From an uncultured Verrucomicrobiota bacterium (GTDB taxonomy: Bacteria > Verrucomicrobiota > Verrucomicrobiia > Palsa-1439), in NCBI GenBank assembly GCA_903847335.1, contig CAINDI010000113.1, positions 1 through 52,571 on the forward strand: a stretch of 52,571 nt of DNA. The letters are read 5' to 3'. Position numbers and translations under genes: made by a program. The notes below the pieces were generated by a model, which was not told where the DNA came from, did not search any database, and was given only the letters and a program-made list of their open reading frames with translations. Below are positions 1 to 52,571 of the stretch, one piece after another (within the stretch, counting starts at the first letter, position 1; the number at the start of each line of letters is the position of its first letter).

Positions 1-133
1 CTGCGCCACCGGTGGCTTCCTCGACGCCGGTCGGTTGAACGATTCGGAACCGGAGTCCCATTTCACGAAGTAAGAATTCCCGGCGCGGTGACGCGCTCGC
101 GAGAATGATTTCCGGTTTGTGCAATACCGACAT
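1..133 (-). CDS. maf: Maf family nucleoside-triphosphate pyrophosphatase, N-terminal part (runs off the left edge)
   Basis: Not in the ORF track. Manual minus-strand translation from ATG 133 gives MSVLHKPEIILASASPRREFLLREMGLRFRIVQPTGVEE; ILASASPRR is the Maf signature. Confidence 0.9.
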   Translation of the reverse strand, partial: MSVLHKPEIILASASPRREFLLREMGLRFRIVQPTGVEEATGGA

Positions 134-155
134 GCCGAGTATCTTTCGCAAAAGT

Positions 156-1235
156 ATGGACAAAGTCGAGCATCTCTATTTGCACGTTCCGTTTTGCGCG
201 ACAAAGTGCCGGTACTGCGCCTTTTATTCCGAACCCGGCCAGACCGATAAGATGGAGGCGTTTGTGGCGGCGGTGCTGAAGGAGATGCAGCCGTGGGCGA
301 GCCGGCTCGCACCCAAAACGATTTTCGTCGGCGGCGGCACGCCGAGTTTGTTACCGGCGCCGTTGCTCCGGCCACTCTTGACCGGCTGGCCGCGAAATCC
401 AGAATTGATTGAATGGACGGTGGAATGCAATCCGGCCACGGTATCGCCGGAGAAGATTGCGGTGTTTCAGGAGGTTGGCGTGAACCGGATTTCGCTTGGC
501 GTGCAAGCGCTCGACGACGAGTTGCTGCAAATGCTCGGACGGATTCACACTGCGGCCACAGCGGTGGCGACGTACCGGGAGTTGCGCTCCGCCGGCTTTG
601 ACAATCTCAATCTCGATTTGATGTTCGGTTTGCCGGGGCAGACGCTAGAGCAATGGCGTGACACATTGTGCCGCGCCATCGAATTACAGCCGGAACATTT
701 TTCCACATATTGTCTAAGCTTCGAAGAAGACACGGAGTTTTGGAAACTCTTTCAAGCCGGTCACCTCCGGCACAACTCCGAGCAGGAATTGGCAATGTAT
801 GAGTTGACGATTGACACGCTCGCGGCGGCTGGTTACCGGCAATACGAAATCAGCAATTTCGCCAAACCCGGTTGCGAATGCCGGCACAACATCGCTGGCT
901 GGGAAGGCCGGGATTACCTCGGCGTTGGTCCGAGCGCGTGTTCGACGGTGGGCGACCGCCGGTGGCAAAATATTTCCGACATCGACCGGTATGTGGCCGG
1001 TCCGTGCGCACCGGCCTTTGCAGAACAGCTCACGCCGGAACTGCGCGCCGCCGAGTGTGCGGCATTTGGAATGCGGATGACTAACGGCGTTCCGGCGGAA
1101 TATGTGCGGGGTCGGTTTGACCGGCAAGTGACGCAGTTGCTCCAGGCTGATTTAGCGTACTGGCATGACGACCGGTTGCGCCCGACCCGGCGCGGAATTC
1201 TCTTCGCCGATGAAGTAGCGACAGAGTTTGTGTAA
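156..1235 (+). CDS. hemW: Radical SAM heme chaperone HemW (HemN-like)
   Basis: LYLHVPFCATKCRYCAF (CxxxCxxC), GGGTPS, NRISLGVQ, DLMFGLPGQ, YEISNFA, HN motifs. Start moved from 105 to ATG 156 because 105 overlaps maf. Confidence 0.9.
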   Translation: MDKVEHLYLHVPFCATKCRYCAFYSEPGQTDKMEAFVAAVLKEMQPWASRLAPKTIFVGGGTPSLLPAPLLRPLLTGWPRNPELIEWTVECNPATVSPEKIAVFQEVGVNRISLGVQALDDELLQMLGRIHTAATAVATYRELRSAGFDNLNLDLMFGLPGQTLEQWRDTLCRAIELQPEHFSTYCLSFEEDTEFWKLFQAGHLRHNSEQELAMYELTIDTLAAAGYRQYEISNFAKPGCECRHNIAGWEGRDYLGVGPSACSTVGDRRWQNISDIDRYVAGPCAPAFAEQLTPELRAAECAAFGMRMTNGVPAEYVRGRFDRQVTQLLQADLAYWHDDRLRPTRRGILFADEVATEFV

Positions 1236-1244
1236 ATTATTTGC

Positions 1245-2204
1245 GTGAATTTGCGGCGCATTCGGGAGTACCTTACCGGCGTTATGGGCAAGCCACCGGC
1301 AGACATTGTAAAAAAACTGGTCGAATCGTTTCATAAGCACGGCGGGATTAATCATCTCGATCAGGCGAATCTTCCGTCGCGCGAAGCGGTGGTGGCCATC
1401 ACACGCAATTTGCTGCGGCTGGTTTTCCCGGGATTTTACGACGACGAAATTCATTCGAATCAAGTCGTCGCTTTCACCACACAACTGGTGGAAACCATCC
1501 GGCAAGAACTGTTGCGCGAATTGTACAAGAGTCTCGTCTACCGGCCTGCTGACAAAAGTAATTTAGCCGGAACAGCCGAACGCATCACGAACGAATTTCT
1601 CGCGGAGCTACCGGCGGTACGCGCGACATTGCAAACCGATGTGACCGCCGCCTATGAAGGCGATCCGGCGGCCATCAGCAATGAGGAAATCATTCTGGCG
1701 TATCCCGGCATCGAAGCGATTGCCGTGCAGCGTATGGCGCATTTGCTGTACCGGCAGCATGTCGCATTGATTCCGCGCATCATGACGGAATGGGCGCACA
1801 ACAAAACCGGCATTGATATTCATCCCGGTGCGCAAATCGGTTCGCACTTTTTTATCGATCACGGCACCGGTGTCGTCGTCGGTGAAACGAGCGTCATCGG
1901 TCAACGCGTGAAGATTTATCAAGGTGTGACACTCGGCGCGAAAAGTTTTCCGAAAGATGCCCAAGGCCGCGTCGTCAAAGGCATCAAGCGCCATCCGAAT
2001 ATCGAAGACGACGTGACGATTTATGCCGGCGCGACAATTCTCGGCGATGTCACCATCGGTCGCGGTTCGATTATTGGCGGCAGCGTCTGGCTGCTCGACT
2101 CCGTGCCGCCCGGCACCGTTGTTTATCACGAAGGTGGTCAGACTAAAATGAAACACGCCGCCAAAGACCGCGACAAAATGGTCGGCCACGCCACCGGCCA
2201 ATGA
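1245..2204 (+). CDS. cysE: Serine O-acetyltransferase (CysE/EpsC type)
   Basis: GDPAA, YPG, TGIDIHPGA, FFIDHGTGVVVGET, KRHP left-handed beta-helix motifs. The true start may be ATG 1284. Confidence 0.9.
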   Translation: MNLRRIREYLTGVMGKPPADIVKKLVESFHKHGGINHLDQANLPSREAVVAITRNLLRLVFPGFYDDEIHSNQVVAFTTQLVETIRQELLRELYKSLVYRPADKSNLAGTAERITNEFLAELPAVRATLQTDVTAAYEGDPAAISNEEIILAYPGIEAIAVQRMAHLLYRQHVALIPRIMTEWAHNKTGIDIHPGAQIGSHFFIDHGTGVVVGETSVIGQRVKIYQGVTLGAKSFPKDAQGRVVKGIKRHPNIEDDVTIYAGATILGDVTIGRGSIIGGSVWLLDSVPPGTVVYHEGGQTKMKHAAKDRDKMVGHATGQ

Positions 2205-3304
2205 ACCGGATTTACGCCGACTACAACGCCACCACACCGCTAGCTCCGGTGGTGTTGGAGGCGATGTTGCCCTATCTCCGTGACCAATTTGGCAATGCCA
2301 GCAGTGCGCATTTTTTCGGCCGGGAAGCGCGGGCGGCGATTGACGATGCGCGGGTTCGTGTCGCCCGGCAACTCGGCGCGCAGGAAAGTGAAATCATTTT
2401 TACCGGTGGCGGCACCGAAGCTGACAACGCCGTGATTTTCGGTGTGCGCCCCGGTCACATCATCACCAGCGAGATTGAACATCACGCCATCTTGCACGCG
2501 TGCCGGCAGCGGACCGATTGCGAAATTACCTATTTACCGGTCGACCGAGATTGCCGGGTGAATCCCGCCGATTTGCAGCGCGCGCTCCGGGACGACACCG
2601 TGCTCGTCTCCATCATGTCCGCCAATAATGAGACCGGTACAATTCAACCGGTGAAAGAACTCGCCGCCATCTGCCGGCAGCGCGGTGTGCCATTTCACAC
2701 CGATGCCATTCAATCGTTTGGCAAGCAGCCGGTGAACGTGAACGATTGGAATGTGGATTTGCTCAGCTTGAGCGCGCATAAATTTTATGGTCCGAAGGGC
2801 ACCGGCGTGTTGTATTGCCGGCGTGGTGTGAAACTGAATCCATTGCTCGTCGGCGGCAGTCACGAAAACGAGCGGCGCGCCGGTACGGAAAATGTGGCCG
2901 GTATCGTCGGCTTGGCGCGAGCGATGGAATTGCCGGTGGTGAATTTATTTGAGTTAACTGAAACGCTGGCGGCCGGTATTGCGGCGAAGATTCCCGGGGC
3001 GCACCGGAATGGTCACGCGACGTTGCGGGCCGGTAACACGGTGAATTTTAGTTTCGCCGGTTGCGAGACGAGCGGGTTGATTCTCGGTTTGGATTTGGAA
3101 GGTGTGGCGGTCTCGAGCGGTTCGGCGTGTGCGGTCGGTTCGCTGGAGCCGTCGCACGTTTTGACGGCGATGGGTTTGCCGCGCGAGTTGGCACGGGCGG
3201 CGGTGCGTTTCAGTTTTGGGAAAGATACAATGCCGGTAGATGTTAGCCGAGTGTTGGATGCGTTGGTGAAAGTGGTCACGCGTTTGCGCGCTTTTACTGC
3301 TTAA
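2201..3304 (+). CDS. Cysteine desulfurase (group I, NifS/IscS-like)
   Basis: YADYNATTP, FTGGGTEADN, HTDAIQ, SAHKFYGPKG (PLP Lys), SSGSAC (catalytic Cys). ATGA overlap with cysE. Confidence 0.92.
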   Translation: MNRIYADYNATTPLAPVVLEAMLPYLRDQFGNASSAHFFGREARAAIDDARVRVARQLGAQESEIIFTGGGTEADNAVIFGVRPGHIITSEIEHHAILHACRQRTDCEITYLPVDRDCRVNPADLQRALRDDTVLVSIMSANNETGTIQPVKELAAICRQRGVPFHTDAIQSFGKQPVNVNDWNVDLLSLSAHKFYGPKGTGVLYCRRGVKLNPLLVGGSHENERRAGTENVAGIVGLARAMELPVVNLFELTETLAAGIAAKIPGAHRNGHATLRAGNTVNFSFAGCETSGLILGLDLEGVAVSSGSACAVGSLEPSHVLTAMGLPRELARAAVRFSFGKDTMPVDVSRVLDALVKVVTRLRAFTA

Positions 3305-3309
3305 AATTT

Positions 3310-5145: not shown

Positions 5146-5158
5146 ATTCAAAATTGTT

Positions 5159-5186
5159 TTGACCCTGCGCTGGAAAGTTGTATAGG
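5159..5186 (+). promoter_or_regulatory. Sigma70-type promoter of the tol-pal operon
   Basis: TTGACC-N16-TATAGG, with AGGAGG Shine-Dalgarno at about 5222 ahead of ATG 5236. Confidence 0.55.
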
Positions 5187-5235
5187 TATGACAGTCAAGC
5201 TGTTCCCCACGGCTTGCATCAAGGAGGCAGTTAGA

Positions 5236-5970: not shown

Positions 5971-5973
5971 GCC

Positions 5974-7298: not shown

Positions 7299-7299
7299 A

Positions 7300-8487: not shown

Positions 8488-8524
8488 TGCAAACAAAAAC
8501 ATATTTCACGAGAGGAAATTAAGT

Positions 8525-9076: not shown

Positions 9077-9090
9077 CTCCGATGCCGGCG

Positions 9091-9119: not shown

Positions 9120-9142
9120 GCGGCAGTAGGAAGGAAGTAATT

Positions 9143-37615: not shown

Positions 37616-37627
37616 TTTTCGATTCCC

Positions 37628-38467
37628 TTGAAAGAATATCTCGACCTCGTCAACTTAGTTTTAGCCAATGGTACGCTCAAAAAGAGCCGCACCGGTATCG
37701 ACACCATTTCCTATTTCGGCGCGCATTACCGGGTGAATCTGGCGAATGGATTTCCGTTGCTCACCACCAAAGAAATCGTCTGGAACTCGTTGCTCCATGA
37801 ATTGCTCTGGTATCTCTCCGGTGAAGACCACATTCGCAATCTCCGGCAACACACCAAAATTTGGGACGCGTGGGCTGACGAAGCCGGTAATCTCGATACC
37901 GCCTATGGCCGGTACTGGCGGCGTTTTCCGCATCCGTACCGGGACAAAGACGGTCACTGGCAAGTCCGGGAAGTTGACCAAATCCAATTTGTTCTCGACA
38001 CACTCCGCACCGAACCGACCAGCCGCCGGATGGTTGTCACCGCGTGGGAACCCGGCAACGCGACAACCAGCAAGTTGCCGCCGTGCCATTACAGCTATGT
38101 TTTCAATGTTCAAGATGGTCGGCTCAATTGCCATCTCACGCAACGCAGCGGCGACATCGCGCTCGGAATTCCATTCAATCTCGCGTGCTACGCCACGCTC
38201 ACACAAATCATTGCCGAACAAGTCGGCCTCGCCGTCGGCTGGTTTAGTCACACTATCGTGGATGCGCACATCTACACCGCCGCCTCCGGTAGTGGCAAAG
38301 AAGAATACGATCATGTCCCCGGTCTGCGTGAACAACTGAAGCGCGTGCCGGGACCGTTGCCCCGGCTGATTATCGCAAAGAAAGCGTTACCGGAACTCAA
38401 GTTTGAAGATTTCAGCATCGAAGGGTACCGGTCGCAGCCGCGCATCAAATTCAAAGTCGCCGTATGA
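37628..38467 (+). CDS. thyA: Thymidylate synthase
   Basis: RTGID, FPLLTTK, ELLW, SRRMVV, LPPCH, QRSGD, PFN, HIY. TTG start. Confidence 0.96.
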   Translation: MKEYLDLVNLVLANGTLKKSRTGIDTISYFGAHYRVNLANGFPLLTTKEIVWNSLLHELLWYLSGEDHIRNLRQHTKIWDAWADEAGNLDTAYGRYWRRFPHPYRDKDGHWQVREVDQIQFVLDTLRTEPTSRRMVVTAWEPGNATTSKLPPCHYSYVFNVQDGRLNCHLTQRSGDIALGIPFNLACYATLTQIIAEQVGLAVGWFSHTIVDAHIYTAASGSGKEEYDHVPGLREQLKRVPGPLPRLIIAKKALPELKFEDFSIEGYRSQPRIKFKVAV

Positions 38468-38922
38468 ACATCGCCATCATCGTCGCCATCGCCGAGAATC
38501 TTGTCATCGGCGACGCCGGTAAGATTCCGTGGCATATCAGCGACGACCTCAAACGGTTCAAGCGTCTTACACTCGGCCATCCGATTATCATGGGCCGAAA
38601 AACTTACGACTCACTTGGAAAACCGTTGCCGGGCCGGCGTAATCTTGTGCTCACACGCGGTGCGCCGATTGCCGGTGTCGAATGTTTTTCTAGTCTTGAT
38701 GCCGCGCTGAAAACTTGCCGGGACGAAACTGTTTTCATCATCGGCGGCGCGGAGATTTACCGGCAAGCTTTACCGGTGGCAAATGCGCTGTTCATCACGC
38801 ACGTTCACCAACAAGTCACCGGTGATACACATTTCCCAGAATTCGACCAGCAACGCTGGCGCGAAGTCGCTCGCGAAGACCATCCGGATTATTCGTTTGT
38901 AGATTACCGGTCGCTTGATTAA
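38464..38922 (+). CDS. folA: Dihydrofolate reductase
   Basis: IPWHISDDLKRFK, IMGRKT, PLPGRRN, IIGGAEIY, GDTHFP. Confidence 0.96.
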   Translation: MNIAIIVAIAENLVIGDAGKIPWHISDDLKRFKRLTLGHPIIMGRKTYDSLGKPLPGRRNLVLTRGAPIAGVECFSSLDAALKTCRDETVFIIGGAEIYRQALPVANALFITHVHQQVTGDTHFPEFDQQRWREVAREDHPDYSFVDYRSLD

Positions 38923-39311
38923 TAGCCGAGATCGAAGGTGTACCGGAGGACGTTGTGGCAATGCACGGAGTCGATGACGGTCTTGCTTTGCCAGCCTTTG
39001 CAGGAGATTGCGCCGGTGACATTTTTGCGGCGTTTCGTGATGGCCTCTTCTAATTCTTTGGTTAGATCAAAGTCGCCACGGATACATTCGCTGTTGGGAC
39101 AATTGAAAAGGAGCACAGATTTGGCGTGTTCAATGTTGACCTCGTATTTGACTTGGCTGTTTTTTGTGACGCCATCGTGGTCGAAATATGCCAACCCAAC
39201 GGTAAGAGATTTCAATTTTTGGAATTGGGTGGCAAGCGATGGTGCGGCCTGAATGCGTTGGCTGGCTTTTTCACGGTGTTCAAAACGGGGACCTACTCTT
39301 TGACGATACAT
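38919..39311 (-). CDS. Hypothetical 130-aa protein with four Cys (putative Zn-binding)
   Basis: FNCPNSECIRGDFDL...SCKGW...HCHN. Basic, no TM segment. Fills the space between the RRM gene and folA. Confidence 0.7.
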   Translation of the reverse strand: MYRQRVGPRFEHREKASQRIQAAPSLATQFQKLKSLTVGLAYFDHDGVTKNSQVKYEVNIEHAKSVLLFNCPNSECIRGDFDLTKELEEAITKRRKNVTGAISCKGWQSKTVIDSVHCHNVLRYTFDLGY

Positions 39312-39392
39312 ATGGAACCGACCTGTTTACTGGGTTGTCTAGCCAATTTACCACATTTGTGCGGCCTTGTATCTATCAATCCGTACAGAAAT

Positions 39393-39425
39393 AAAAAGGG
39401 CATCCCGGTTACAGGATGCCCTTTT
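39393..39425 (-). terminator. Intrinsic terminator after the RRM gene (possibly bidirectional)
   Basis: AAAAA-GGGCATCC-N8-GGATGCCC-TTTT; 8-bp GC stem flanked by A/T tracts. Confidence 0.85.
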
Positions 39426-39448
39426 CGGATTATACCGCGAGTCGGTTT

Positions 39449-39769
39449 TTAGTACCGGCGCGAACGATTGTCGTCGCGACGGCCACCGCCACCACCGCCG
39501 AAGTCGCCACGGGGACGTTCTTCACGGGGTTTCGCTTCGTTGACGGTCAACGCGCGACCATCAAGTTCTTTGCCGTTAATATCGGCAATTGCCTTAGTGG
39601 CTTCTTCCTGCGAGCTCATTTCCACAAATCCGAACCCACGGGACTTGTTGGTGAACTTGTCCACGATCAGGTTGCAAGCGGTGACGTTACCGGCCTGTTT
39701 GAACAGGTCGAGAATATCGCCTTCGGTGGTGTTGAACGACAGGTTTCCTACGAATAGCCTGGTAGCCAT
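39449..39769 (-). CDS. RRM RNA-binding protein with Gly/Arg-rich tail (Rbp type)
   Basis: RNP2 LFVGNL, RNP1 RGFGFVEM, VNEAKPRE, GGGGGG tail. Confidence 0.95.
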   Translation of the reverse strand: MATRLFVGNLSFNTTEGDILDLFKQAGNVTACNLIVDKFTNKSRGFGFVEMSSQEEATKAIADINGKELDGRALTVNEAKPREERPRGDFGGGGGGRRDDNRSRRY

Positions 39770-39902
39770 TATGTGTATCTTTCTGCTGCGGTTAGGAGGT
39801 CTCAGTGACTGTTCTCGAACTCGAGTTTAGGATCATCACCGAGCAAAATCGTCTGACAATCTACCAATCTCACTGCAACTGCTACTATCTGCGAGCACCT
39901 TC

Positions 39903-39930
39903 ACCATACCCTGCTTTCCTAGAATAGCAA
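39903..39930 (-). promoter_or_regulatory. Sigma70-type promoter of the RRM gene, implying a ~125-nt 5' leader
   Basis: Minus strand TTGCTA-N16-TATGGT. Confidence 0.55.
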
Positions 39931-39937
39931 CAGAAAG

Positions 39938-40672
39938 TTACGCGAATTTAGTACGCCATTTACGACCGGCGAAACCTAATACCAGTCCGCCGATGCACAA
40001 CAAAAACCCAGTCGAAGGTTCCGGTACGGCGGCGACTGTTGGAGTGTAGGTGTATTGGATATCAATCGTTGCTGCACCTTGCGAGGTCGTTCCCAGCCAG
40101 AAGTTGCCGGGTTTGTTGTGAGTTGTAATGGTATCTGACTCATTCGCTGCGACTTGGAAGTCAGTTTGTCCAAGGCCAATGAATGCCGCTAAAGTCGGCG
40201 CGGTGGTGTAAGTGAAAACCTGCGATTGCGTAGCGTTAACAATTGGAATTGTAGCACCGGAGGTACCGGAGCCATCAGTCGTACCGTCATATTTTGGCAT
40301 AGATGGAATTACCATTCCATTAGTCGCGGCGGAAGTGGCCATGGAAAGATAACTCTGCGCACCTTGAGTAATATCTAGGGTTTGATCCATTGCGTAGTTG
40401 GCTGTAAACGCCGTGGAAGGTTTGGTGAGATTGGTGTTTTCATATTGCCAACCACCCACTAATTCACCGGTGACAGTGATCTGCACGCTTTGTAAGTGAC
40501 CGAGACTTGGATCGAAAAGATTCAAAAGTAAATCTTGGGCGTAAGATGTATCTGTGAGTGAAATCGTGGCGGATTCATCAATGATTGCAGCCGACACGTT
40601 AACCGTGCTGAAGAGTCCTACAAAAAGACCAATCAGTCCCACGGCGATTGCAACATGACGATAGCTTCTCAT
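39938..40672 (-). CDS. PEP-CTERM sorting-domain surface protein (choice-of-anchor E-like)
   Basis: Signal peptide; LNLFDPSLGHLQSVQI N-terminal pattern; Thr/Ser-rich body; C-terminal VPEPST-hydrophobic-RKWR. Confidence 0.9.
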   Translation of the reverse strand: MRSYRHVAIAVGLIGLFVGLFSTVNVSAAIIDESATISLTDTSYAQDLLLNLFDPSLGHLQSVQITVTGELVGGWQYENTNLTKPSTAFTANYAMDQTLDITQGAQSYLSMATSAATNGMVIPSMPKYDGTTDGSGTSGATIPIVNATQSQVFTYTTAPTLAAFIGLGQTDFQVAANESDTITTHNKPGNFWLGTTSQGAATIDIQYTYTPTVAAVPEPSTGFLLCIGGLVLGFAGRKWRTKFA

Positions 40673-40804
40673 TCGCGAAGAATAGTGGACGACGAATCAT
40701 GCTCTTCAGGGAGCGGTTGCCATGTGAAATGACAACAATCCAAACATGGGAAGGAATCCAAACGAGGGAAACATCTGCGGGTCATCAAGAACCCATGGCG
40801 GGTT

Positions 40805-40833
40805 CATATAAGAGAAGTGGTGTGAAATGTCAA
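40805..40833 (-). promoter_or_regulatory. Distal sigma70-type promoter upstream of the PEP-CTERM gene
   Basis: Minus strand TTGACA-N17-TATATG. Confidence 0.5.
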
Positions 40834-40850
40834 TAACTTGTGAATAACTT

Positions 40851-42683
40851 TTACTTCGCAATCAGTCCAGTTTGCAGCGCCGCCAGAATACCGGCGGCAC
40901 CACCGGGCGACATGAGATATAGCCCAGCCCAGCCTTCTTGCTGAACTCGCTGCACCTGCTCCACGGCAATTTCAAGGCCAACCTTTGCCTGATCGGTCGG
41001 ATTGGATTTAGTGGCTAACCGCTGGAGGATTTTATCCGGCAAAACCACACCGGGCACTTGCGCCACGCGCTGGGCTTGTTCCAAACTCGTCAAAATCATA
41101 ACGCCAATCAAAATCGAATGTTTTGTCCGCAACGATTCCAGCGCCGCCAGCGGTTCCGCGCGAAACGCCGGTTGTGTCATCACATAATCCGCACCGTGAT
41201 CGAGCTTCTGCCGGAGGCGGTCGAGTTCACGTTTGCCATCGACGGCTTCCGGTTCAAAGCCCGCACCAATCGTAAAATGAGTACGCGGGTCAGCCTGTTT
41301 ACCGAGTGGCGCGCCGCCAAAGTCCACACCGGCGTTCAGGCACGAGTTTGTCAATCGCACCAGTGCCACCGAATCTAAATCAAACACTGCCGTCGAGCGC
41401 GGATACGTCGGCGACATCTTCGGCGGGTCGCCGGTGATGAAAAGAACATTATGAATCCGGTTCGCGTGAAATCCAATCAGTCGGCTCTGAATTCCCATCA
41501 GATTCAAATCGCGGCCGGTAAAGTGCGGAATCAACTCCAACCGGTCGCCAATCTGATTCCGAACCAGATGAATGAAATCTCCCGGCGGCATCAACGGAAT
41601 TCCGCGCGAGCCATCGGTGAAATCCACCGCATCCGCCAGACCGCTGTCGGCAAGTTGGCGGATGAAATCAATCTTACCGGCGACCAGTTTCTCATCCGTT
41701 CCGCGCGGCGGCAAAATTTCAACGCTGACGACAAACTTTCCGGCTTTCAATTTTTGAGAGAACCGGCCGTTTGCTGATTTTTCGACATCACCGGCCGGCG
41801 GACGAGTTGATTTTATTTCAACGCCACCGGTGACGCCGGCTTGTCGCGACCGGAGATAATTGTGCATTTCGCGAAGATGTGGCGGGTGCATTTCGCAGCA
41901 ACCACCAATCAATCGCACGCCGCGATCCATCAAGCTCCGCGCCAACCGGCCCATATATTCCGGATTCACTGAACTCATGAACCGGTTGCCGATTCGCTGA
42001 AATCCACCGGCGTTCGGCATCACTACTAGAGGCAACGGCGCATCCGGTACCGCGTCTACAAATGCGCTCGCATCCCACGGCGCACAGCAATTCACGCCCG
42101 CGACCGCTGCGCCGATTTCCGCCATCCGCTGGACAAACGCCGCCGGTAAAATTTCTGGGCTGAATGTCATTTCCGCGATAATCGGCGGTGCGCCCGGTAT
42201 CGACCGGATGAGCGCGATGAGTAATTCCAGTTGTGGTTGCGAGCTAAAAGTTTCCAGCAACAACGCATCAGCACCGGCGGCAATCAAATTTTCGATTTGT
42301 TCCCGGTAACATTCCGCGATGGCGGTGGGTGTGAGTAAAACTCCGGCGGCCGGGCCGATGGAAGCGAGCGTGAAGACCGGTTCCGTCCCGGCGGTGCGCG
42401 CGAGATTCACGCCGGCGCGATTTAATTCTGCCACGCGGTGTTCCATTCCAAACTGCCGCAACTGATGTCGGTTCGCGCCAAAGGTATTAGTTTTGAGACA
42501 GCGTGCGCCGGCGGCGAGATAATCCCGGTGGACGCGACGGATGAGGTCCGGTTGATCGGTGTTGAACGCTTCGTAGACGTGATTCGTCTCGGACAATCGT
42601 CCGGTGAGTTCAAACAAATACGAACCCATCGCGCCGTCAGTGAGCAACGGTTGCGTTTTTAACGTGGTTAAAAAATCCGCCAT
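40851..42683 (-). CDS. yitJ: Bifunctional homocysteine S-methyltransferase / methylenetetrahydrofolate reductase (YitJ type)
   Basis: DGAMG, TNTFGAN, LETF, GVNC, PNAG, IGGCC (Zn ligands). C-terminal MTHFR domain: VEILPPRG, HFTGRD, ITGDPP, GADYVMTQP. Confidence 0.88.
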   Translation of the reverse strand: MADFLTTLKTQPLLTDGAMGSYLFELTGRLSETNHVYEAFNTDQPDLIRRVHRDYLAAGARCLKTNTFGANRHQLRQFGMEHRVAELNRAGVNLARTAGTEPVFTLASIGPAAGVLLTPTAIAECYREQIENLIAAGADALLLETFSSQPQLELLIALIRSIPGAPPIIAEMTFSPEILPAAFVQRMAEIGAAVAGVNCCAPWDASAFVDAVPDAPLPLVVMPNAGGFQRIGNRFMSSVNPEYMGRLARSLMDRGVRLIGGCCEMHPPHLREMHNYLRSRQAGVTGGVEIKSTRPPAGDVEKSANGRFSQKLKAGKFVVSVEILPPRGTDEKLVAGKIDFIRQLADSGLADAVDFTDGSRGIPLMPPGDFIHLVRNQIGDRLELIPHFTGRDLNLMGIQSRLIGFHANRIHNVLFITGDPPKMSPTYPRSTAVFDLDSVALVRLTNSCLNAGVDFGGAPLGKQADPRTHFTIGAGFEPEAVDGKRELDRLRQKLDHGADYVMTQPAFRAEPLAALESLRTKHSILIGVMILTSLEQAQRVAQVPGVVLPDKILQRLATKSNPTDQAKVGLEIAVEQVQRVQQEGWAGLYLMSPGGAAGILAALQTGLIAK

Positions 42684-42743
42684 GCGGCTTCTTGATACAA
42701 CAGACCGGCGGCAGAGTCAAAACCGGTTACGCGCCGCCGGTGA

Positions 42744-43658
42744 TTAGTTTTGTGTGAGTTGATTCGCGTCGAACACAATCGGGAAGTTTTCACCTTCGAC
42801 CACGGCGCCTTTCGGGATCGGCGGCGTGCCCGGCATCAGCGGCTTGTCGGTGTCAGAACGCACATCCGGTCGGATGAAGTTTAGCACCACTCCGCGGCGT
42901 GGGTTGGGCGAAGTATTTGGATATGAGCCGTGCAAAGTGAGGCAATGATGAAACGATGCCTCACCAGCCTTGAGCATCATCGGCACCGGTTTGAATTGCG
43001 CGAGTTGTTCGGGAGACAGCACCTGCTTGATGGCTTCCATATCTTCCATGCCACCGGTGAGCTTGACGGTCGGCAACAGATTCCAGCGGTGCGAACCGGG
43101 AACGACATGGACGCAGCCGTTCTCTAAAGTGGTGTCATCCAGCGCAACGAAACAGGTGATGTGTCCCACCGGTACCGTGCGTGTCCAATACGAATAATCC
43201 TGATGCCATGCCACCACGCCACCGTGCCGGGCGGGTTTGTAGAAAAGCTGGTCGTGCCAGAACCGCACCCGGTTCGTGCCGAGCAATTGACTGAGCGGAA
43301 CCGTCATCTCCGCATTGAACAGCAGGTCGTGAAACGCGTCGTCCACAAACCAAGCACCTTGAAAATAAATCATCTGCTGATTCTTGGTCGCGCCACCGGC
43401 GGCTGCGGTCAATCCAATCAGTTCGCTCCGGCGCGGAAAATCGTCGGCCACCATCTGTTCCAACCGGTCGCGCAAACATTGGAGTTGGCGTTCCTCCAAA
43501 ACTCGAATGCCTTTGAGATAACCATTGGTCTCGTAGAACCGCACTTGTTCCGGCGAGAGGGTGTATTTCGGAATCTCCTCCGACCGAGTAGCTGCCGTGA
43601 ATAATTGGCCCGCTGGCCGATGAATTTTTCGATAATCAATCAGATTGGTCGTGCCCAT
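42744..43658 (-). CDS. Phytanoyl-CoA dioxygenase family (Fe(II)/2-oxoglutarate) enzyme
   Basis: NGYL, DQLFYKP, WHQD, ALDD..ENGC..VPGSH, H..TLHGS..N...RR. Confidence 0.88.
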   Translation of the reverse strand: MGTTNLIDYRKIHRPAGQLFTAATRSEEIPKYTLSPEQVRFYETNGYLKGIRVLEERQLQCLRDRLEQMVADDFPRRSELIGLTAAAGGATKNQQMIYFQGAWFVDDAFHDLLFNAEMTVPLSQLLGTNRVRFWHDQLFYKPARHGGVVAWHQDYSYWTRTVPVGHITCFVALDDTTLENGCVHVVPGSHRWNLLPTVKLTGGMEDMEAIKQVLSPEQLAQFKPVPMMLKAGEASFHHCLTLHGSYPNTSPNPRRGVVLNFIRPDVRSDTDKPLMPGTPPIPKGAVVEGENFPIVFDANQLTQN

Positions 43659-43690
43659 GCCGGTACCGATACTTCAACCCGAATCGGGAG

Positions 43691-44887
43691 TCAAGGTGAG
43701 CCAGGTTCATATTTTTTAGAATTGCTTAACAACAATGAGAATAAAAATCCCAACGCCAATAAGCCGGCGCCGATTCCAAATGCGTCGCTGGCGGCTTGCG
43801 TTCCGAAGTGGTCTTTGAGGAATGCCACCATTTGCGGGCCGACAATTCCGCCGGCCGACCACGCCGTTAGGATACAGCCGTAAAGCACCGGCATCCGCAC
43901 CGGGCCAAACGTGTTCAGCACAAACGCAGGCATCACGCCGAAGCCGCCTCCGTAACAAAGCAGCACATAACAAATCAGCGCGCCGAACAACCAAGGGTTA
44001 CCGGTGAAGATGAGCGCGACAAACGCGATGACTTGCGTGGCCAGCATCACACGGAACGTGGCGAGTTGACCGAGCCGGTCCGACAGACCGCCCCAGAACA
44101 GCCGGCCCAAACCATTGAATAATGAGCTAACCGCAATCAACGTCGCGCCGGCCATCGCCGGATTTGGGCCACGCCACAAATCCTGCAACAGCGGCGATTG
44201 GAAACTGATGATGGCGATTCCGGCGACAATGTTGCAAAAGAACACCAGCCACATCAAACCAAACTGTCGCGACCAGACCGGCGCGATCCCCGCGAGGTTG
44301 ACGGAAGCGACCGGTGTCCCCGGTGGATTCCGCAGGCCAGCCGCAGCAAACAAACTGATCGTACCGACAATCAAGCCGATACCGGCAAAAACCAGCGGTA
44401 GTTGATGTTGGCAAGCGGCGTCGAGTGCCGGTGCGATGACTTTGCTCATCAGCAGTGCGCCCAAGCCGAAACCCATGACCACCATGCCGGTGACTAAACC
44501 TTTTTTATCGGGAAACCATTTCGCCGCAGTCGCCACCGGCGTGACATAGCCAAGTCCTAAGCCGATTCCGCCAACAACTCCGTAGCCGAGCCACAACAGC
44601 GGCAGCGATTTCAAATGCAACGCCAGCGCCGCGAGCAGATAGCCAGCGCCGTACAGCAAGCTACCGGTGACCGCGAGTTTGCGTGGGCCGAATTTCGGAA
44701 GCAAGACGCCGCCGACCGCCGCCGCTACGCCAAGAAAACCGATGGCGAGACTGAACGCCCACGCAACTTGCGTGTTGCTCCAACCGTAACCGGTGACGAG
44801 CGGTTTCTGGAAATAACTCCAAGCGTACACCGCGCCGAGGCACAGTTGTAGCAATGTGCCGGCACCGGCAATGAGCCAGCGCTTCAT
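43691..44887 (-). CDS. MFS transporter, oxalate/formate antiporter (OFA) family
   Basis: GAVYAWS, GLGYVTPVATAAKWFPDKKGLVTG..VMGFG, NGLGRLFWGGLSDRLG, YGGGFG. ATG 44887 overlaps the fhs stop (TGATG). Confidence 0.88.
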   Translation of the reverse strand: MKRWLIAGAGTLLQLCLGAVYAWSYFQKPLVTGYGWSNTQVAWAFSLAIGFLGVAAAVGGVLLPKFGPRKLAVTGSLLYGAGYLLAALALHLKSLPLLWLGYGVVGGIGLGLGYVTPVATAAKWFPDKKGLVTGMVVMGFGLGALLMSKVIAPALDAACQHQLPLVFAGIGLIVGTISLFAAAGLRNPPGTPVASVNLAGIAPVWSRQFGLMWLVFFCNIVAGIAIISFQSPLLQDLWRGPNPAMAGATLIAVSSLFNGLGRLFWGGLSDRLGQLATFRVMLATQVIAFVALIFTGNPWLFGALICYVLLCYGGGFGVMPAFVLNTFGPVRMPVLYGCILTAWSAGGIVGPQMVAFLKDHFGTQAASDAFGIGAGLLALGFLFSLLLSNSKKYEPGSP

Positions 44888-46563
44888 CAGAACAAGCCGA
44901 CGATTTCGCCCGCTTCGTTGATGTCGATGATTTCCGCCGACGGAATTTTTGGCAAGCCCGGCATCGTCATGATGTCGCCGGTCAAGACGACGACGAATCC
45001 GGCTCCGGCGGAAAGTTTCACGTCGCGAATCGGCACGTCGAAGTTTTTCGGACGGCCGAGCAAGGCCGGGTCGGTGGAAAGCGAATATTGCGTCTTCGCC
45101 ATGCACACCGGCAGATGCGCGTAGCCAGCGGCTTCGAAATCTTTGATTTTCTGACGGACTTTTACGTCGGCCATGATGTTGTCGGCGCCATAAATATTTT
45201 GCGCGATGGCGCGAATTTTATTCCAGAGACCCATCTCATCGGTGTAGAGGAACTGGAAATTATTGGAACGCGGTTGCTCCGCAAGTTCGACGACAGCTTT
45301 CGCCAGATTTTCCGCACCGGCACTGCCGCGCGCCCAGTGGTCGGCTTTGACGGCGCGAACGCCGAGAGTTTTGCAGTGGTTCTCAATGACGGCGACTTCC
45401 TCCGGTGTGTCAGCGGTGAAATGATTAATCGCAACCACCACCGGTAGGTTGTAGAGCCGAATATTTTCGATGTGTTTTTCGAGATTGGCGATGCCTTTTT
45501 CGACGGCGGACGGATTCGGTTTTCCGAGGTCAGCTTTCAGAACTCCGCCGTGCATTTTGAGCGCCCGAACAGTGGCGACGATGACAACGGCACTCGGTTG
45601 CAAGCCGGCCTTCCGGCACTTGATATCGAGGAATTTTTCTGCGCCGAGGTCGGCACCGAAGCCGGCTTCGGTCACAGCGTAATCGGCGAGCCGGAGACCT
45701 AATTTGGTAGCGAGGACGCTGTTGCAACCGTGCGCGATGTTGGCGAATGGTCCACCATGAACGAATGCCGGATTGCCTTCGAGCGTCTGGACGAGATTTG
45801 GTTTGAGCGCATCTTTCAACAAGACGGTCATTGCGCCGTGAGCTTTGAGGTCGGCAGCAGTGACGGGCTTTTTCTCGCGGGTGTAAGCGACGACAATTTT
45901 GCCGAGACGTTCCCGGAGTTCTTTGAGCGATTCGGAGAGACAGAAAATCGCCATGACTTCGGAGGCGACGGTGATGTCGTAGCCGGATTCGCGCGGGATG
46001 CCGTTGGCGTTGCCGCCGAGGCCGAGAACGATGTCGCGGAGAGCGCGGTCATTCATGTCCACGACGCGCCGCCAGACGATGCGATTCACGTCGATGCCGA
46101 GTTTATTGCCTTGCGTGAGATGGTTATCGAGGAGCGCGGCGAGTAAATTGTGCGCGGCACCGATGGCGTGAAAGTCACCGGTGAAGTGAAGATTGATGTC
46201 TTCCATCGGAATCACTTGCGCGTAACCACCACCGGCGGCGCCACCTTTGACGCCGAAACACGGACCGAGCGATGGTTCGCGTAGACAGATGACGGCGCGT
46301 TTGCCGATGCGGTTCAACGCATCGCCGAGACCGACGGTGCAGGTGGTTTTACCTTCACCGGCGGCAGTCGGATTGACAGCGGTGACAAGGATCAACTTGC
46401 CGGTCGGCGCGTTGTCGAGGCTATGGAAGTAATCGAGCGAGATTTTGGCTTTGTAATGGCCGTAATGCTCAAGGTCGGCATCGGGAATGCGGAGCTTCTT
46501 GGCAATCTCTCCGATGGGTTTGATTTTGGCAGCGCGCGCGATTTCAATATCGGACAGTGGCAT
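44887..46563 (-). CDS. fhs: Formate-tetrahydrofolate ligase
   Basis: [66 protein letters not shown]. Confidence 0.97.
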
Positions 46564-46578
46564 AATGAGATTTCCTTT

Positions 46579-47442
46579 TTAGGCGTAGAATTCTTGGACG
46601 CGCATGATGACGTCGAAACCTTCCAGCTTCAGACAATCGGTGAGGCATTGCAGCGCCGGAGCGTCGGTCGTAAGCATTTCGTATTTGCGTTTGACCGAAC
46701 CGATGACGTGATCCATTCCGAGCGGCATGGCCAGCGTGAGGAACGCGCTTTCGAGCGGGCCTTTCGTCGGTGAACCATCGGCGCGTTTCGGCGGCAGCAT
46801 GACGGTGAAATTGCTGAGACCCACTGACATGTGGACGCCCTTGAAGTTTGCGTCGTCGTGAATTAGGCGGATGGATTTCATCAACCGGAGAAACTGGTTT
46901 TCAGAATCAGCGCCAATCGGTGAGATGCCGGCGTCAATGATGCAATCGCTGACTGCGATGCTATGTTTCTTGGCTTCGGCAATCATCTGTTTTGCGGTCG
47001 CGTAGGTCTGGTTGGCGTCGTGATTTGGCTGGCCGGTGCCGTTTTCATTGCGCTCGGTGACGAGGAGAATCGGCCTGAATGCGATAATCTTTTTCAAGTC
47101 GAACATCTCTGGTCGCAACGGCGAAATGGAATTCAGTAACGGGATTTTGCCACCGGCGCGATTGAGGTCGTAGGCTTTGAGACCAGCTTCGGCCATGACT
47201 GGATCGGGTGTGTCGATGGAGAGCGGCTTCGCGGTGACGCTCTGAACTTGCCGGACCATTTCCGCGAGAAATTCCGGCGAACGCTTGCCGACGTTGACGT
47301 CGATGTAGGTTGCGCCGCCGGCGTCTTGCGACTTAGCCAGTTCTTTCAAGCCGGCGATGTCGTTGGCTTCGTAAAGTTTTTTGGTGGACGGAACGGAATC
47401 GTTGATGGATTCTCCGATGATACTGAGGCCGGGTAGTGACAT
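46579..47442 (-). CDS. Pterin-binding methyltetrahydrofolate:corrinoid methyltransferase (AcsE / MetH folate-domain-like)
   Basis: IIGESIN, GATYIDVNVG, PLSIDT, NSIS, IIDAG, VGLSNF. ATG 47442 lies 1 nt after the metF-metV stop. Confidence 0.8.
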   Translation of the reverse strand: MSLPGLSIIGESINDSVPSTKKLYEANDIAGLKELAKSQDAGGATYIDVNVGKRSPEFLAEMVRQVQSVTAKPLSIDTPDPVMAEAGLKAYDLNRAGGKIPLLNSISPLRPEMFDLKKIIAFRPILLVTERNENGTGQPNHDANQTYATAKQMIAEAKKHSIAVSDCIIDAGISPIGADSENQFLRLMKSIRLIHDDANFKGVHMSVGLSNFTVMLPPKRADGSPTKGPLESAFLTLAMPLGMDHVIGSVKRKYEMLTTDAPALQCLTDCLKLEGFDVIMRVQEFYA

Positions 47443-47443
47443 A

Positions 47444-49000
47444 TTATTTCTCCTTTTTTGCGTGATGATCGCGGTTGCGGTAAGTGTTCGCCCAAGCCGA
47501 AGTGCCTTCGAGGCTGGCATTGTAAAATACGGCCGGGCCATCGAGCATGTGTTCGGCTTCGCCGTAAGCTTTCAGTCGGTCGTAAGCGCGCGCCCAGAGA
47601 CAATCTTTGTCGTCGAGTTCGCACCGGCCTTCCGCCGAACCGCCGCACGGACCGTTGCGGCCGGTTTTGGAACAAGCTTTGCGCGGGCAAAGATACGCGG
47701 TGTCCGGTAGCGAGCAATCGCCGCAATCTTTGCAGCCGAATGCCATTTCTTTCGAGACGCGTTCGATGCTGTGCAATGCTCGAGACGCCAGATTATCGCC
47801 GTTTTTTTCGAGCTGAGTGTAAATTTTTTGCATCGCCGGATAAAATCCTTCGCCGGCGACGAAAAATTTCTCGTGAATTTTTCGCGTGAGCCGGTAACCC
47901 AGCGGCGCGGGATTTTCCAACGCCTTCCGGTACTCGCGATTCAATTGCGTGACGTCGCCGAGACCGGTGGCGGGGTCGGCTTCAAAAAGGTAAAATTCAT
48001 CCGGTTTCGAATACTGAATTTCTTTGGCAAATTCTTTCCAGTCGTTTTCGCCGTAGCTCTGCGCTAGCTCGATAATTTTGCCGAACGATTCCGCTTTACC
48101 GAGACCGCCGAGATAGCCACCGGCGAAGCCTAAGCCTTTGAACACGGCGAGTTGTTTCGCGGCGAGTTCGTTGAAAAAGCTCCGGCCTTTGTCGGGACCG
48201 GCGGCGTATTTCTCAATGAGCGCAAAAAGTTTATCGCTGACGACACAGCCGGGGATTTTGTTTTTGTTGAACAAACCGGCGACGGTTTTGTTGAGGACGT
48301 AGACATTGCCGATGACCGGCGCTTGGACTTGCGCCCATTGCATGAAAAGTTTGATTTCGTAAAACTTTCGCATGTCGTAGCCGAGTTGCGAAATTACCCA
48401 CTCGGCGCCGCAATGGATTTTGCGGGCGAGTTTGAAATATTGCGGCATCAATTCGCGTTCTTGGCGTTTGAATGGCGAAACGGCGCAGCCGGTAAAGAAT
48501 TTTGTCTGTGGAAATTTTTCGGTCTTACCGCCGGGACGCTGAACTTCGAGACCGTCGTTCATTGCTTTGAGCATGGCAATGAGGCTGACAGAATCTAAAT
48601 CAAAGACCGGTCGCGCTAAACCGCCGTAGCCGGTGATTGGATAATCACCGGTGAGGGCAAGCAAGTTATCAAAGCCTTCAAGTGCATACCGCCACGCGGC
48701 GGATTCAAGACCGTTTCGGTTCAGGTCTTTGCAAGTAAGATGAATCGCCACCGGGACTGATTGACCAGCCAGCATACCGGCAATCCAGTCGGGCGGAAGC
48801 ATTGGATTGCCGCCGGGGTTATCGGTAATGGAGAGCCAGCCGATGCGTGGGTCTTGGGCAAGCGCTTTGCCGAGATCGATGAGTTTGTGTTGTTCGCCGG
48901 GAGCCGGAATGCCGCGCGTGCTGACCAATTCCGCGCCGTACACGAAGCGTCCGCCGGTAATGGCGGCTCGAAAAGTCTCTCGATTACTAATTGGATCCAT
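47444..49000 (-). CDS. metF: Methylenetetrahydrofolate reductase MetF fused to a C-terminal MetV (Cys-rich) domain
   Basis: ITDNPGG, HLTCKDLNR, LTGDYP, FDLDSV, SQLGYD. C-terminal CKDCGDC...CPRKACSK..RNGPCGGS...C.....CLW (MetV/MTHFR_C). Confidence 0.85.
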   Translation of the reverse strand: MDPISNRETFRAAITGGRFVYGAELVSTRGIPAPGEQHKLIDLGKALAQDPRIGWLSITDNPGGNPMLPPDWIAGMLAGQSVPVAIHLTCKDLNRNGLESAAWRYALEGFDNLLALTGDYPITGYGGLARPVFDLDSVSLIAMLKAMNDGLEVQRPGGKTEKFPQTKFFTGCAVSPFKRQERELMPQYFKLARKIHCGAEWVISQLGYDMRKFYEIKLFMQWAQVQAPVIGNVYVLNKTVAGLFNKNKIPGCVVSDKLFALIEKYAAGPDKGRSFFNELAAKQLAVFKGLGFAGGYLGGLGKAESFGKIIELAQSYGENDWKEFAKEIQYSKPDEFYLFEADPATGLGDVTQLNREYRKALENPAPLGYRLTRKIHEKFFVAGEGFYPAMQKIYTQLEKNGDNLASRALHSIERVSKEMAFGCKDCGDCSLPDTAYLCPRKACSKTGRNGPCGGSAEGRCELDDKDCLWARAYDRLKAYGEAEHMLDGPAVFYNASLEGTSAWANTYRNRDHHAKKEK

Positions 49001-49250
49001 GTTGATTACTTATGTTTTGTTGACCCGCCGTATTGACGACAGGACACGCTGTAATGCTGTAAGTTTCGTGAAACACTAGGAAAATAAGGGTTATGCCTTA
49101 ATTTGACAATGCTCCTGACTCGCGAAAACATACCGGTTATTGACTGATGTGGCGCAGTTGTAAAAATCTGCAAACTATAAATTTTGTTCGTGCAAACTGC
49201 GGGGCAGACGCCTAAAGTTACGGCTCAATAACTTCAGGAGATTTAATTCT

Positions 49251-52039: not shown

Positions 52040-52040
52040 T

Positions 52041-52403
52041 ATGCAACCGCAGACCGGCATCATTCTCGTCACGCACGGTTCCCGACTCGCCGCCGGCAAT
52101 GACGCGCTCCTCCAATTTGCCGTACAACTCCGGCAACGCCTCGGCACTGAACTTATCGAACCGGCGTTTATGGAAATCGCGCAGCCGAGCATTCCGGTGG
52201 CGATTCACAAATTGATTCAGCAAGGTTGCCGGCATATTTTCGGCTACGCCTTATTTCTCGTTCCCGGCACGCATCTGCAAAACGACATTCCGGCGCTGTT
52301 CGCCGAAGTGCTAAAAGACCATCCCGGTGTCACGTGGGAACTTTCGCCCCCGATGCTCACTGAACCGCGACTCCTCGACTTTGTTGCTGACCAGCTTAAA
52401 TAA
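52041..52403 (+). CDS. cbiX: Short single-domain CbiX/SirB sirohydrochlorin chelatase
   Basis: THGSR, AFMEIAQPSI, FLVPGTHLQNDIP; both metal-binding His present. ATG 52041, 120 aa. Confidence 0.8.
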   Translation: MQPQTGIILVTHGSRLAAGNDALLQFAVQLRQRLGTELIEPAFMEIAQPSIPVAIHKLIQQGCRHIFGYALFLVPGTHLQNDIPALFAEVLKDHPGVTWELSPPMLTEPRLLDFVADQLK

Positions 52404-52410
52404 GAAATAG

Positions 52411-52440
52411 TTGACGGAGTCACAAAGTTACCGGTAGAGT
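52411..52440 (+). promoter_or_regulatory. Sigma70-type promoter driving the riboswitch leader
   Basis: TTGACG-N18-TAGAGT. Confidence 0.55.
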
Positions 52441-52449
52441 CCGCGCCAG

Positions 52450-52571
52450 TTCTTTAGGAAAATGCGTCGGCGCAGGGAATGCCGTGAGATTCGGCAACAG
52501 TGGCGCTGCTGTAACTGGATACGAAAGCCCAATTGCCATCCGAATGGAGAAGGCGGGCCGGTAGATTTGAA
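52450..52571 (+). ncRNA. Cobalamin riboswitch (truncated by the window edge)
   Basis: AGGGAA-TGCCGTGAGATTCGGCA (T-loop hairpin)-ACAG..GCTGCTGTAA...GCCAT...GAGAAGGC; order and spacing match the B12 element. Confidence 0.85.

What the first reader, a model, noticed from the sequence alone, without database searches (positions are those of the whole stretch)
1..52571. Highly iterated palindrome RCCGGY (HIP1-like) throughout the window
Seen: ACCGGT/GCCGGT/ACCGGC/GCCGGC occur on almost every line, in all frames and on both gene strands. A hand count of nt 1-1200 gave about 33 CCGG, about 16 of them RCCGGY. About 8 and 2 would be expected at an estimated 57% GC. The motif is sparser in the AT-richer PEP-CTERM region. 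Known: cyanobacterial HIP1 is a similarly over-represented palindrome linked to a cognate DNA methyltransferase, whereas restriction sites are normally avoided. Inference: a methylase/repair-driven or chromosome-organising motif in a non-cyanobacterial lineage, also usable as a marker of native versus recently acquired DNA.
Basis: partly seen in the sequence, partly recalled or inferred. Interest (0 to 1): 0.72.

Follow-up and report, generated by a model that had tools for sequence, protein, structure and literature searches.

The report
Genome-wide ACCGG/CCGGT word bias
This lake bacterium writes the short DNA word ACCGG/CCGGT several times more often than chance in genes and between genes, likely as the favoured pole of a general sequence bias that also removes restriction-enzyme sites, and not as a methylase-made HIP1-type palindrome.

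Summary
The excess is real and genome-wide: 838 CCGG and 446 RCCGGY in the window (297 and 74 expected). It survives synonymous-codon shuffling (ACCGGT 2.9-fold, all three frames) and is as strong between genes. This Verrucomicrobiota genome has the highest ACCGGT density of 301 class genomes.

It is not a HIP1-type palindrome. The favoured unit is the half-site ACCGG/CCGGT; having both purine flanks adds nothing. The best 8-mer is 15-fold (HIP1 55-228). Karlin's ratio for CCGG is only 1.13. The excess is graded across the family and tracks CCC and GATC depletion. The only C5 methylase is mobile, and one of its closest plasmid relatives sits beside a HaeII-family nuclease; no Vsr was found; TCGG/CTGG are not depleted.

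Substitution rates fit weak fixation bias. A family-wide orphan N4-cytosine-type methylase is a candidate reader, echoing the unexplained CCGG excess of Helicobacter pylori, but its target is untested and its presence does not predict the excess. rCCGGy is already published as an alternative HIP in one cyanobacterium. The word flags foreign genes moderately well.

The parts
1..52571 (.). Dispersed CCGG words, mostly flanked as ACCGG/CCGGT or GCCGG/CCGGC, one per 63 nt on average, through an ordinary core-gene contig (hemW-like, cysE, nifS-like, tol-pal, tatC, mqnC, dusB, ispG-rseP-dxr, cdsA-uppS-purA, thyA-folA, fhs)
   Evidence: 838 CCGG, 446 RCCGGY; gap mean 62.8, CV 0.92; 833 of 1220 possible silent sites filled; gene names
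1..1200 (.).
   Evidence: 33 CCGG, 16 RCCGGY; 33 of 41 silent sites filled, 25.6 CCGG/kb
38900..40850 (.). AT-richer stretch with the choice-of-anchor E gene (39938-40672, minus strand): low density, but the bias is present
   Evidence: GC 0.49; CCGG O/E 1.73 for the stretch, 2.4 in the gene; 6 of 7 silent sites filled; NF033208 match

Best explanation
The genome prefers the word ACCGG/CCGGT (core CCGG) at silent and intergenic positions on both strands, as one pole of a lineage-wide composition signature that is likely held in place by weak fixation bias (selection or biased conversion) while CCC/AGG runs and restriction-type sites are purged. Shown: the excess, its unit, its independence of codons and strand, its gradient across relatives and its covariation with CCC and GATC loss. 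Estimated from one genome pair, transversions only: changes that create the word fix about 2-fold more often and changes that destroy it 2- to 4.6-fold less often, which at position 4 matches a fixation bias of about 1.5 in population-scaled units. Inferred: much of the CCGG core excess is the by-product of avoiding neighbours (CCWGG, CCC, AGG), with a residual direct preference of about 3-fold for ACCGG whose reader is not identified; the whole signature is stronger in this small-genome lake lineage.
For: Unit: in a held-out conditional-logit model of fourfold sites (150,000 of 329,768 used) ACCGG is the best single motif once codon, di- and trinucleotide terms are in; jointly CCGG +0.51, ACCGG +1.31, GCCGG +0.56, RCCGGY interaction -0.63. 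With gapped 2- and 3-base terms and GATC/CCWGG/GGCC avoidance (90,000 sites) the CCGG core falls to +0.14 while ACCGG keeps +1.16. Karlin ratio 1.13 and 1.14 after fitting all three-way margins. Co-avoided words: CCC 0.53, AGG 0.70, GATC 0.47, CCWGG 0.37, CTCGAG 0.16, GGCGCC 0.40. Across 25 family genomes CCGG excess tracks CCC (rho -0.80) and GATC (rho -0.75) depletion (6-24 kb samples, kin not independent). ACCGGT per kb is graded: 1.77 here, 1.10 and 0.98 in two congeners, 0.63-0.65 in two more, about 0.3 in genus g8. Rates against G002 (55,741 fourfold sites): position 4 in 0.474 vs 0.242 control, out 0.215 vs 0.486; position 2 in 0.76 vs 0.41, out 0.078 vs 0.36. Weaker in the ribosomal-protein region and in mobile genes.
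Against: The ACCGG residual is not explained by avoidance, and no reader was found. CCGG alone still scores +1.23 on top of the gapped terms before CCWGG and ACCGG are added, and Karlin-type ratios shrink when one word dominates its own margins. A context-dependent mutation matrix can mimic the rate pattern; non-motif sites before GG shift too (in 1.15 vs 0.47); transitions are saturated in that pair. In the closer G001-G002 pair (6,065 sites, wide intervals) transition entry rates are not raised while exit rates drop at three of four positions, which looks more like protection than symmetric selection.
Confidence: 0.45

Rival explanations
1. Helicobacter-like: the resident orphan beta-class N4-cytosine-type methylase (G000:C1:1123-1875, start on the end of C31) would methylate a CCGG-core site; the mark would shield the site from restriction and from C-to-T loss, so it accumulates while other palindromes are purged.
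For: Of the methylases found here it is the one shown to be family-wide (25 of 27 family genomes at least 90% complete) and native-looking (13 of 17 silent sites filled). It has the SPPY motif (SPPY as an m4C sign is recalled) and an Atlas neighbour cluster named cytosine-N4-specific. Its orthologues in G001, G002, G051 and G052 sit beside a Pfam RE_BsaWI nuclease; BsaWI cuts WCCGGW (PMC4652773). In H. pylori CCGG is the one over-represented type II motif and is m4C-methylated by a beta-class enzyme (PMC4687349, PMC10423294, PMC3936762). Exit by transition is lower at positions 1, 3 and 4 (small sample).
Against: Target untested. The neighbouring nucleases lack the R-(D/E)R CCGG-recognition motif of PMC4652773, and other orthologues pair with an unrelated SwaI/NgoBV-like fold. 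Carriers span 0.18-1.77 ACCGGT per kb, most without excess. The gene moves between loci and its tree does not follow the genera. Transversion rates change too, which protection from deamination would not do. By Karlin's ratio the excess here is 1.13, against about 1.4-1.5 in Helicobacter.
Confidence: 0.25
2. Pure mutation/repair context bias: polymerase errors and a reduced repair kit (for example loss of extra uracil-DNA glycosylases) would make CCGGT contexts cold spots and CCC/AGG hot spots, with no selection.
For: Strand-symmetric, equal in intergenic DNA, graded over flanking bases, acquired by amelioration. The three most enriched genomes carry one UDG-family gene where 33 of 38 family genomes carry 2-4; the missing ones include a family-5-type enzyme (family label recalled from its motif). 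ACCGGT density falls with genome size (rho -0.46, 26 genomes, 12 of 15 g8 genomes left out).
Against: G006 also has one UDG and no excess (G017, also one, has a mild excess); G008 and G013 lack the family-5 type without excess. MutS, MutL, Fpg and three HhH-GPD glycosylases are present. The matched rise in entry and fall in exit at position 4 is what fixation bias predicts.
Confidence: 0.15
3. A reading signal: ACCGG/CCGGT would be a DNA-uptake, Chi-like or nucleoid-binding word that spreads by biased uptake or is selected for chromosome organisation.
For: Asymmetric unit with graded partial matches; ComEC present; fixation-bias-like rates; CCGG is the best-kept of 14 all-G/C tetramers in a 90%-identical relative (0.81 vs 0.59-0.78 over 6.5 kb).
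Against: No consensus beyond about two flanking bases; no strand polarity beyond GC skew (7553 vs 7536, chi2 64 on 54 contigs); no periodicity at 30-300 bp, gap CV 0.92; ComEC is also in non-enriched relatives (5 of 5).
Confidence: 0.1
4. Alternative HIP in Elhai's sense: an rCCGGy C5 methylase (DmtD type) plus GmeC-directed mismatch repair, or Vsr repair, would ratchet up the palindrome.
For: RCCGGY is the top degenerate 6-bp palindrome (O/E 5.25) and all 16 top 8-mers contain CCGG, as rCCGGy does in Oscillatoria PCC 10802 (PMC4390886). Mismatch repair is intact. A methylase could have been lost recently or lie in an assembly gap (99.57% complete, 177 contigs).
Against: One C5 methylase only, beside an IS1595 transposase and a putative nuclease, unameliorated (7 of 24 sites), with a 50%-identical relative beside a HaeII-family nuclease; any C5 methylase in only 1 of 4 congeners. 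No Vsr or DUF559. TCGG and CTGG are not depleted (+0.15, +0.24). The order ACCGGT 6.4 > ACCGGC 5.6 > GCCGGC 3.8 is the reverse of the GmeC prediction.
Confidence: 0.05

Closest known systems
Alternative HIP rCCGGy of Oscillatoria PCC 10802 with DmtD (Elhai 2015, PMC4390886; passages and section 2.3 read)
   Same: Same degenerate word tops the genome's palindromes; a top 8-mer begins CACCGG in both; lineage-specific outlier among relatives.
   Different: Half the strength (best 8-mer 15 vs 32 by the same formula); ACCGGT is highest here but is the one form not enriched there; no rCCGGy C5 methylase found; graded across the family.
CCGG over-representation in Helicobacter pylori with m4C methylase M.Hpy99VIII (PMC4687349, PMC10423294, PMC3936762; passages read)
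   Same: CCGG is the only enriched 4-bp palindrome amid general restriction-site avoidance; a widespread beta-class N4-type methylase is present; methylase presence does not predict site density (there p=0.95 in the supplement table).
   Different: Karlin ratio 1.13 here vs about 1.4-1.5; the unit here is ACCGG/CCGGT; the methylase target here is unknown and homology to the Helicobacter enzyme could not be tested.
HIP1 (GCGATCGC) of cyanobacteria (PMC4390886, PMC5861425; passages read)
   Same: All frames, intergenic as well as genic, better conserved than control words.
   Different: HIP1 is a sharp 8-mer at 55-228-fold (15-300 in PMC5861425) with cognate methylases and 18-94 kb periodicity; this is a soft 5-mer at about 4-6-fold with no cognate enzyme shown.
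Dcm/Vsr very-short-patch repair signature (recalled)
   Same: A short C/G-rich word in excess.
   Different: No Vsr; the T-containing neighbours are not depleted; CCWGG itself is strongly avoided.

Membership tests
HIP1 / alternative HIPs | Strong over-representation of a defined palindrome (8-mer O/E about 30-230 by base composition) | tested here: not met
   Best 8-mer CACCGGTG 15.3, RCCGGY 5.25; within Elhai's 'weak oligomer' range of 8-21
HIP1 / alternative HIPs | The full palindrome, not a half-site, is the enriched unit | tested here: not met
   ACCGGT 0.95 and GCCGGC 0.88 of pentamer expectation; interaction -0.63
HIP1 / alternative HIPs | Cognate C5 methyltransferase in the genome | tested here: not met
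   Single, mobile C5 methylase; of its two closest plasmid hit groups (50-52%), the annotated one lies beside a HaeII-family nuclease; assembly 99.57% complete
HIP1 / alternative HIPs | Independent of reading frame and present in non-coding DNA | tested here: met
HIP1 / alternative HIPs | Sites more conserved than control words | tested here: met
   Exit rates 2-4.6-fold lower; retention 0.81 vs 0.59-0.78 (6.5 kb only)
HIP1 / alternative HIPs | Periodic spacing at tens of kb | not testable with these tools
   177 contigs, longest 82.5 kb; none at 30-300 bp
Helicobacter-type CCGG excess | Karlin ratio at least 1.23 | tested here: not met
   1.13; the maximal-order Markov ratio is 1.42
Helicobacter-type CCGG excess | CCGG carries N4-methylcytosine from a beta-class methylase | not testable with these tools
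   Candidate enzyme present; no methylation data; no Helicobacter genome could be reached for comparison
Dcm/Vsr-type repair bias | Vsr nuclease and depletion of the T:G-derived neighbours | tested here: not met
Chi / uptake sequences | Longer consensus (8-10 nt) or replication-strand polarity | tested here: not met
Lineage-specific oligonucleotide signature with restriction-site avoidance | Strand-symmetric, genome-wide, shared in graded form by relatives, weaker in foreign genes | tested here: met

The most novel reading that the evidence does not exclude
The orphan N4-cytosine-type methylase marks CCGG, and a methylation-sensitive step in recombination or repair favours marked alleles, so this lake Verrucomicrobiota lineage has independently evolved the same CCGG drive that is unexplained in Helicobacter: an m4C-based route to highly iterated words, separate from the 5mC model for HIP1, caught at several strengths along one family.
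Probability: 0.15. Interest if true: 0.7.

Novelty: new variant of a known kind. Interest (0 to 1): 0.33.

Why it matters
Why some bacteria enrich a restriction-type palindrome instead of avoiding it is open for both HIP1 and Helicobacter CCGG. This family offers a six-fold gradient of one word (about 0.3 to 1.8 ACCGGT per kb) on a shared methylase background, with mismatch repair intact, which makes the question testable by methylome and population data. If the best explanation holds, it is an unusually strong but ordinary genome signature, useful for binning and for spotting foreign genes.

Tried and rejected
C5 methylase of G000:C140 as cause: mobile, patchy, a close relative lies beside a HaeII-family nuclease; the Neisseria hit has no annotation. 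Truncated HTH-methylase at C3:30715-31278: found in 1 of 37 family genomes, one without excess. The other N6/N4 methylases read as restriction-linked genes with low CCGG; their spread in relatives was not searched. Vsr and DUF559: none here. MutS, Fpg, MutL, ComEC presence does not separate enriched from non-enriched genomes; UDG count only loosely. Target of the orphan methylase: no characterised close relative in PDB, plasmids, NCBIfam, the protein database or the Atlas; self-avoidance in the cassette genes was uninformative. Strain variants: read laying listed only 40 of about 2,700 differing places, too few for a spectrum; the metagenome scan gave 9 close contigs of 80, one at 90% identity. 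The three-genome comparison has only 6,065 sites. By ratio to the reversed control TGGCCA one class genome (G247, 263 vs 19) exceeds G000, through loss of the control word, so density was used for ranking. Literature searches for a report of this bias in Verrucomicrobiota or for ACCGGT as a genome signature found nothing on point; the Lake Biwa methylome passages (PMC6329791) show no CCGG motif in its four Verrucomicrobia bins, none known to be of this family. bioRxiv supplements are closed and one scanned supplement of PMC10423294 was unreadable; most subscription papers were not searched.
Full report
Setting. The window is the whole contig C113 of a 2.35-Mb, 53.7% GC, 99.57% complete assembly. 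It holds ordinary core genes. PurA's best named matches are Verrucomicrobia at 60-64% identity and named homologues of other proteins are mostly Verrucomicrobiota. The DNA is held by lake and freshwater metagenomes (20 runs, 13 studies); 4 runs were laid, one with contigs differing by 0-5 letters per 500-900.

Observation. The window has 838 CCGG and 446 RCCGGY against 297 and 74 by base composition; 39% of 60-nt lines carry RCCGGY. Genome-wide, CCGG is 2.59-fold by base composition, 2.5 by dinucleotides and 1.42 by the maximal Markov model, the only one of 16 four-base palindromes above 1.1; GATC, GGCC, CCWGG and most six-base palindromes are avoided. Synonymous shuffling leaves ACCGGT at 2.89, in all frames. 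Intergenic DNA shows the same excess. Of 46,098 silent sites where CCGG can form, 0.64 carry it against 0.35 expected.

What the unit is. The hexamers are not enriched beyond their pentamers and the two flanks act independently. At silent sites the chance of forming CCGG rises with each matching flank, for example 0.86 in AC.GGT against 0.42 in TC.GGA. A held-out logit model picks ACCGG/CCGGT as the best motif after di- and trinucleotide terms and gives the full palindrome a negative interaction. Adding gapped terms and CCWGG/GATC avoidance removes most of the CCGG core effect but not ACCGG. Karlin's ratio for CCGG is 1.13. RCCGGY is therefore the overlap of two half-site preferences on a background that shuns CCC and AGG. 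By Elhai's formula the best 8-mer is 15-fold, against 32 for rCCGGy in Oscillatoria PCC 10802 and 55-228 for HIP1 (PMC4390886).

Distribution. Whole-genome counts put this genome first of 301 class genomes in ACCGGT density (1.77 per kb; next 0.98). In 38 family genomes density is graded from 1.77 through about 1.0 and 0.65 in congeners to about 0.3. Of 67 named purA loci of 8 kb or more (of 80 returned), 2 reach a dinucleotide-based CCGG ratio above 2.5 and none reaches 1.4 by the maximal Markov model. Across 25 family genomes the excess tracks CCC and GATC depletion, and most avoided palindromes are more strongly avoided here than in G002: the whole signature scales together. Kin are not independent, so these correlations are descriptive.

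Candidate enzymes. One C5 methylase exists, between an IS1595 transposase and a putative nuclease, with foreign codon choice; a 50%-identical relative lies beside a HaeII-family nuclease (HaeII's RGCGCY target is recalled). C5 methylases occur in 1 of 4 congeners and 9 of 24 family genomes. No Vsr or DUF559 was found, and TCGG/CTGG are not depleted. Nine N6/N4 matches were found; one, an orphan beta-class SPPY enzyme, is native-looking and present in 25 of 27 family genomes and 4 others. Its orthologues pair with three kinds of nuclease, two in Pfam RE_BsaWI but without the R-(D/E)R motif that reads CCGG (PMC4652773). Most carriers have no excess. Its target is unknown.

Dynamics. Against G002 (801 kb sampled of about 2.7 Mb; 390 alignments; fourfold identity 54%) transversions into the word are about 1.9-fold faster and out of it 2.3- to 4.6-fold slower than in control contexts. 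At position 4 this matches a symmetric fixation bias of about 1.5 (predicted 1.9-fold up and 2.3-fold down, my arithmetic from the frequencies); neither a gain-only ratchet nor loss-only protection fits. Part of the position-2 shift is shared by non-motif sites before GG, and flank turnover can blur the estimate. The smaller G001-G002 set shows no hypermutable outer C, lower transition exit at three of four positions and no raised transition entry, with wide intervals. There is no strand polarity beyond GC skew and no short-range periodicity.

Reading. The most likely account is a strong lineage signature under weak fixation bias, in which CCGG words are what remains favoured while neighbouring runs and restriction sites are purged, with a direct but unexplained preference for ACCGG (0.45). 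The methylase-linked account borrowed from H. pylori is next (0.25): there CCGG is the only over-represented type II motif, is m4C-methylated, and has no accepted explanation (PMC4687349; PMC10423294; PMC3936762; PMC6381644). Pure mutation bias (0.15), a read signal (0.10) and a 5mC HIP ratchet (0.05) follow.

Comparison and novelty. It works like other dispersed word excesses but fails the HIP tests for strength, palindrome unit and cognate C5 methylase, and fails the Karlin threshold of the Helicobacter case. The word itself is already published as an alternative HIP. I found no report for this lineage. What I saw of papers: passages by term search for all cited papers and for PMC5861425, PMC6329791 and bioRxiv 10.64898/2026.06.24.734251; one whole section of PMC4390886; supplement hits of PMC10423294. 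Scan look-ups returned phage cases and two unrelated notes on this genome; none changed the reading.

Verdict. Real and unusually strong for its class, but a soft half-site bias with no cognate enzyme shown. Interest 0.33; new variant of a known kind.

Noticed in passing
L243:1165-1836 (+), L244:2-646 (-), L245:1354-2034 (-), L246:740-1399 (-), L247:1366-2043 (-), L248:1132-1785 (+), L249:1105-1785 (+), L250:1405-2058 (-); alignment A1: Eight family genomes carry a stand-alone protein of the RE_BsaWI nuclease family with an intact K-x-S-x-R-E-R motif (the CCGG-reading motif of this nuclease family), a hydrophobic N-terminus that looks like a signal peptide (by eye), and no methylase beside it within about 1.5 kb. 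An exported CCGG-family nuclease fold would be unusual. Not found in G000 by a profile search of six frames.
   Followed up: partly
L176:755-1504 (-) (G004): The nuclease-like gene downstream of the conserved methylase also begins with a signal-peptide-like stretch; its model resembles SwaI/NgoBV-type nucleases.
   Followed up: partly
L236, L237, L238, L239, L240, L241, L242, L251, L175, L176: One methylase clade (about 75-80% identity) is paired with three different nuclease types and is orphan in many genomes, at changing loci; in G002 and G042 the cassette lies directly downstream of mutS.
   Followed up: partly
G000:C3:30715-31278 (L008/L209): HTH-fused N4/N6 methylase gene that ends just after its SAM-binding motif, followed at once by a foreign-looking nuclease-like gene; an 88% identical copy in a longer open frame is in G020.
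   Followed up: partly
G000:C126:42132-42572 and relatives: G000, G001 and G002 keep one UDG-family gene; 33 of 38 family genomes have two to four, including a family-5-type enzyme and a variant with an altered catalytic motif.
   Followed up: partly
G000:C126:33626-35044 and 36858-38027; C143:42266-43024; C137:17234-18121: Genes, some housekeeping-type (mnmE-like, carA-like by eye), with low GC3 (0.35-0.45) and weak CCGG use: either recent replacement or part of the 4.45% contamination of the assembly.
   Followed up: no
whole genome: Thr-Gly (1.51), Pro-Val (1.47) and Tyr-Arg (1.40) dipeptides, which can spell CCGG across the codon junction, are over-used; not compared with other genomes.
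   Followed up: no
L096 and L107: purA regions of a Ruminococcus flavefaciens MAG and a Chryseobacterium MAG show CCGG at 2.6-2.7 times the dinucleotide expectation, there with a CCGGA-type flank (CGGA second-ranked).
   Followed up: no
window 40851-49000: One-carbon cluster: homocysteine methyltransferase/MetF fusion, dioxygenase, formate-type MFS transporter, Fhs, corrinoid methyltransferase and a MetF-like gene.
   Followed up: no
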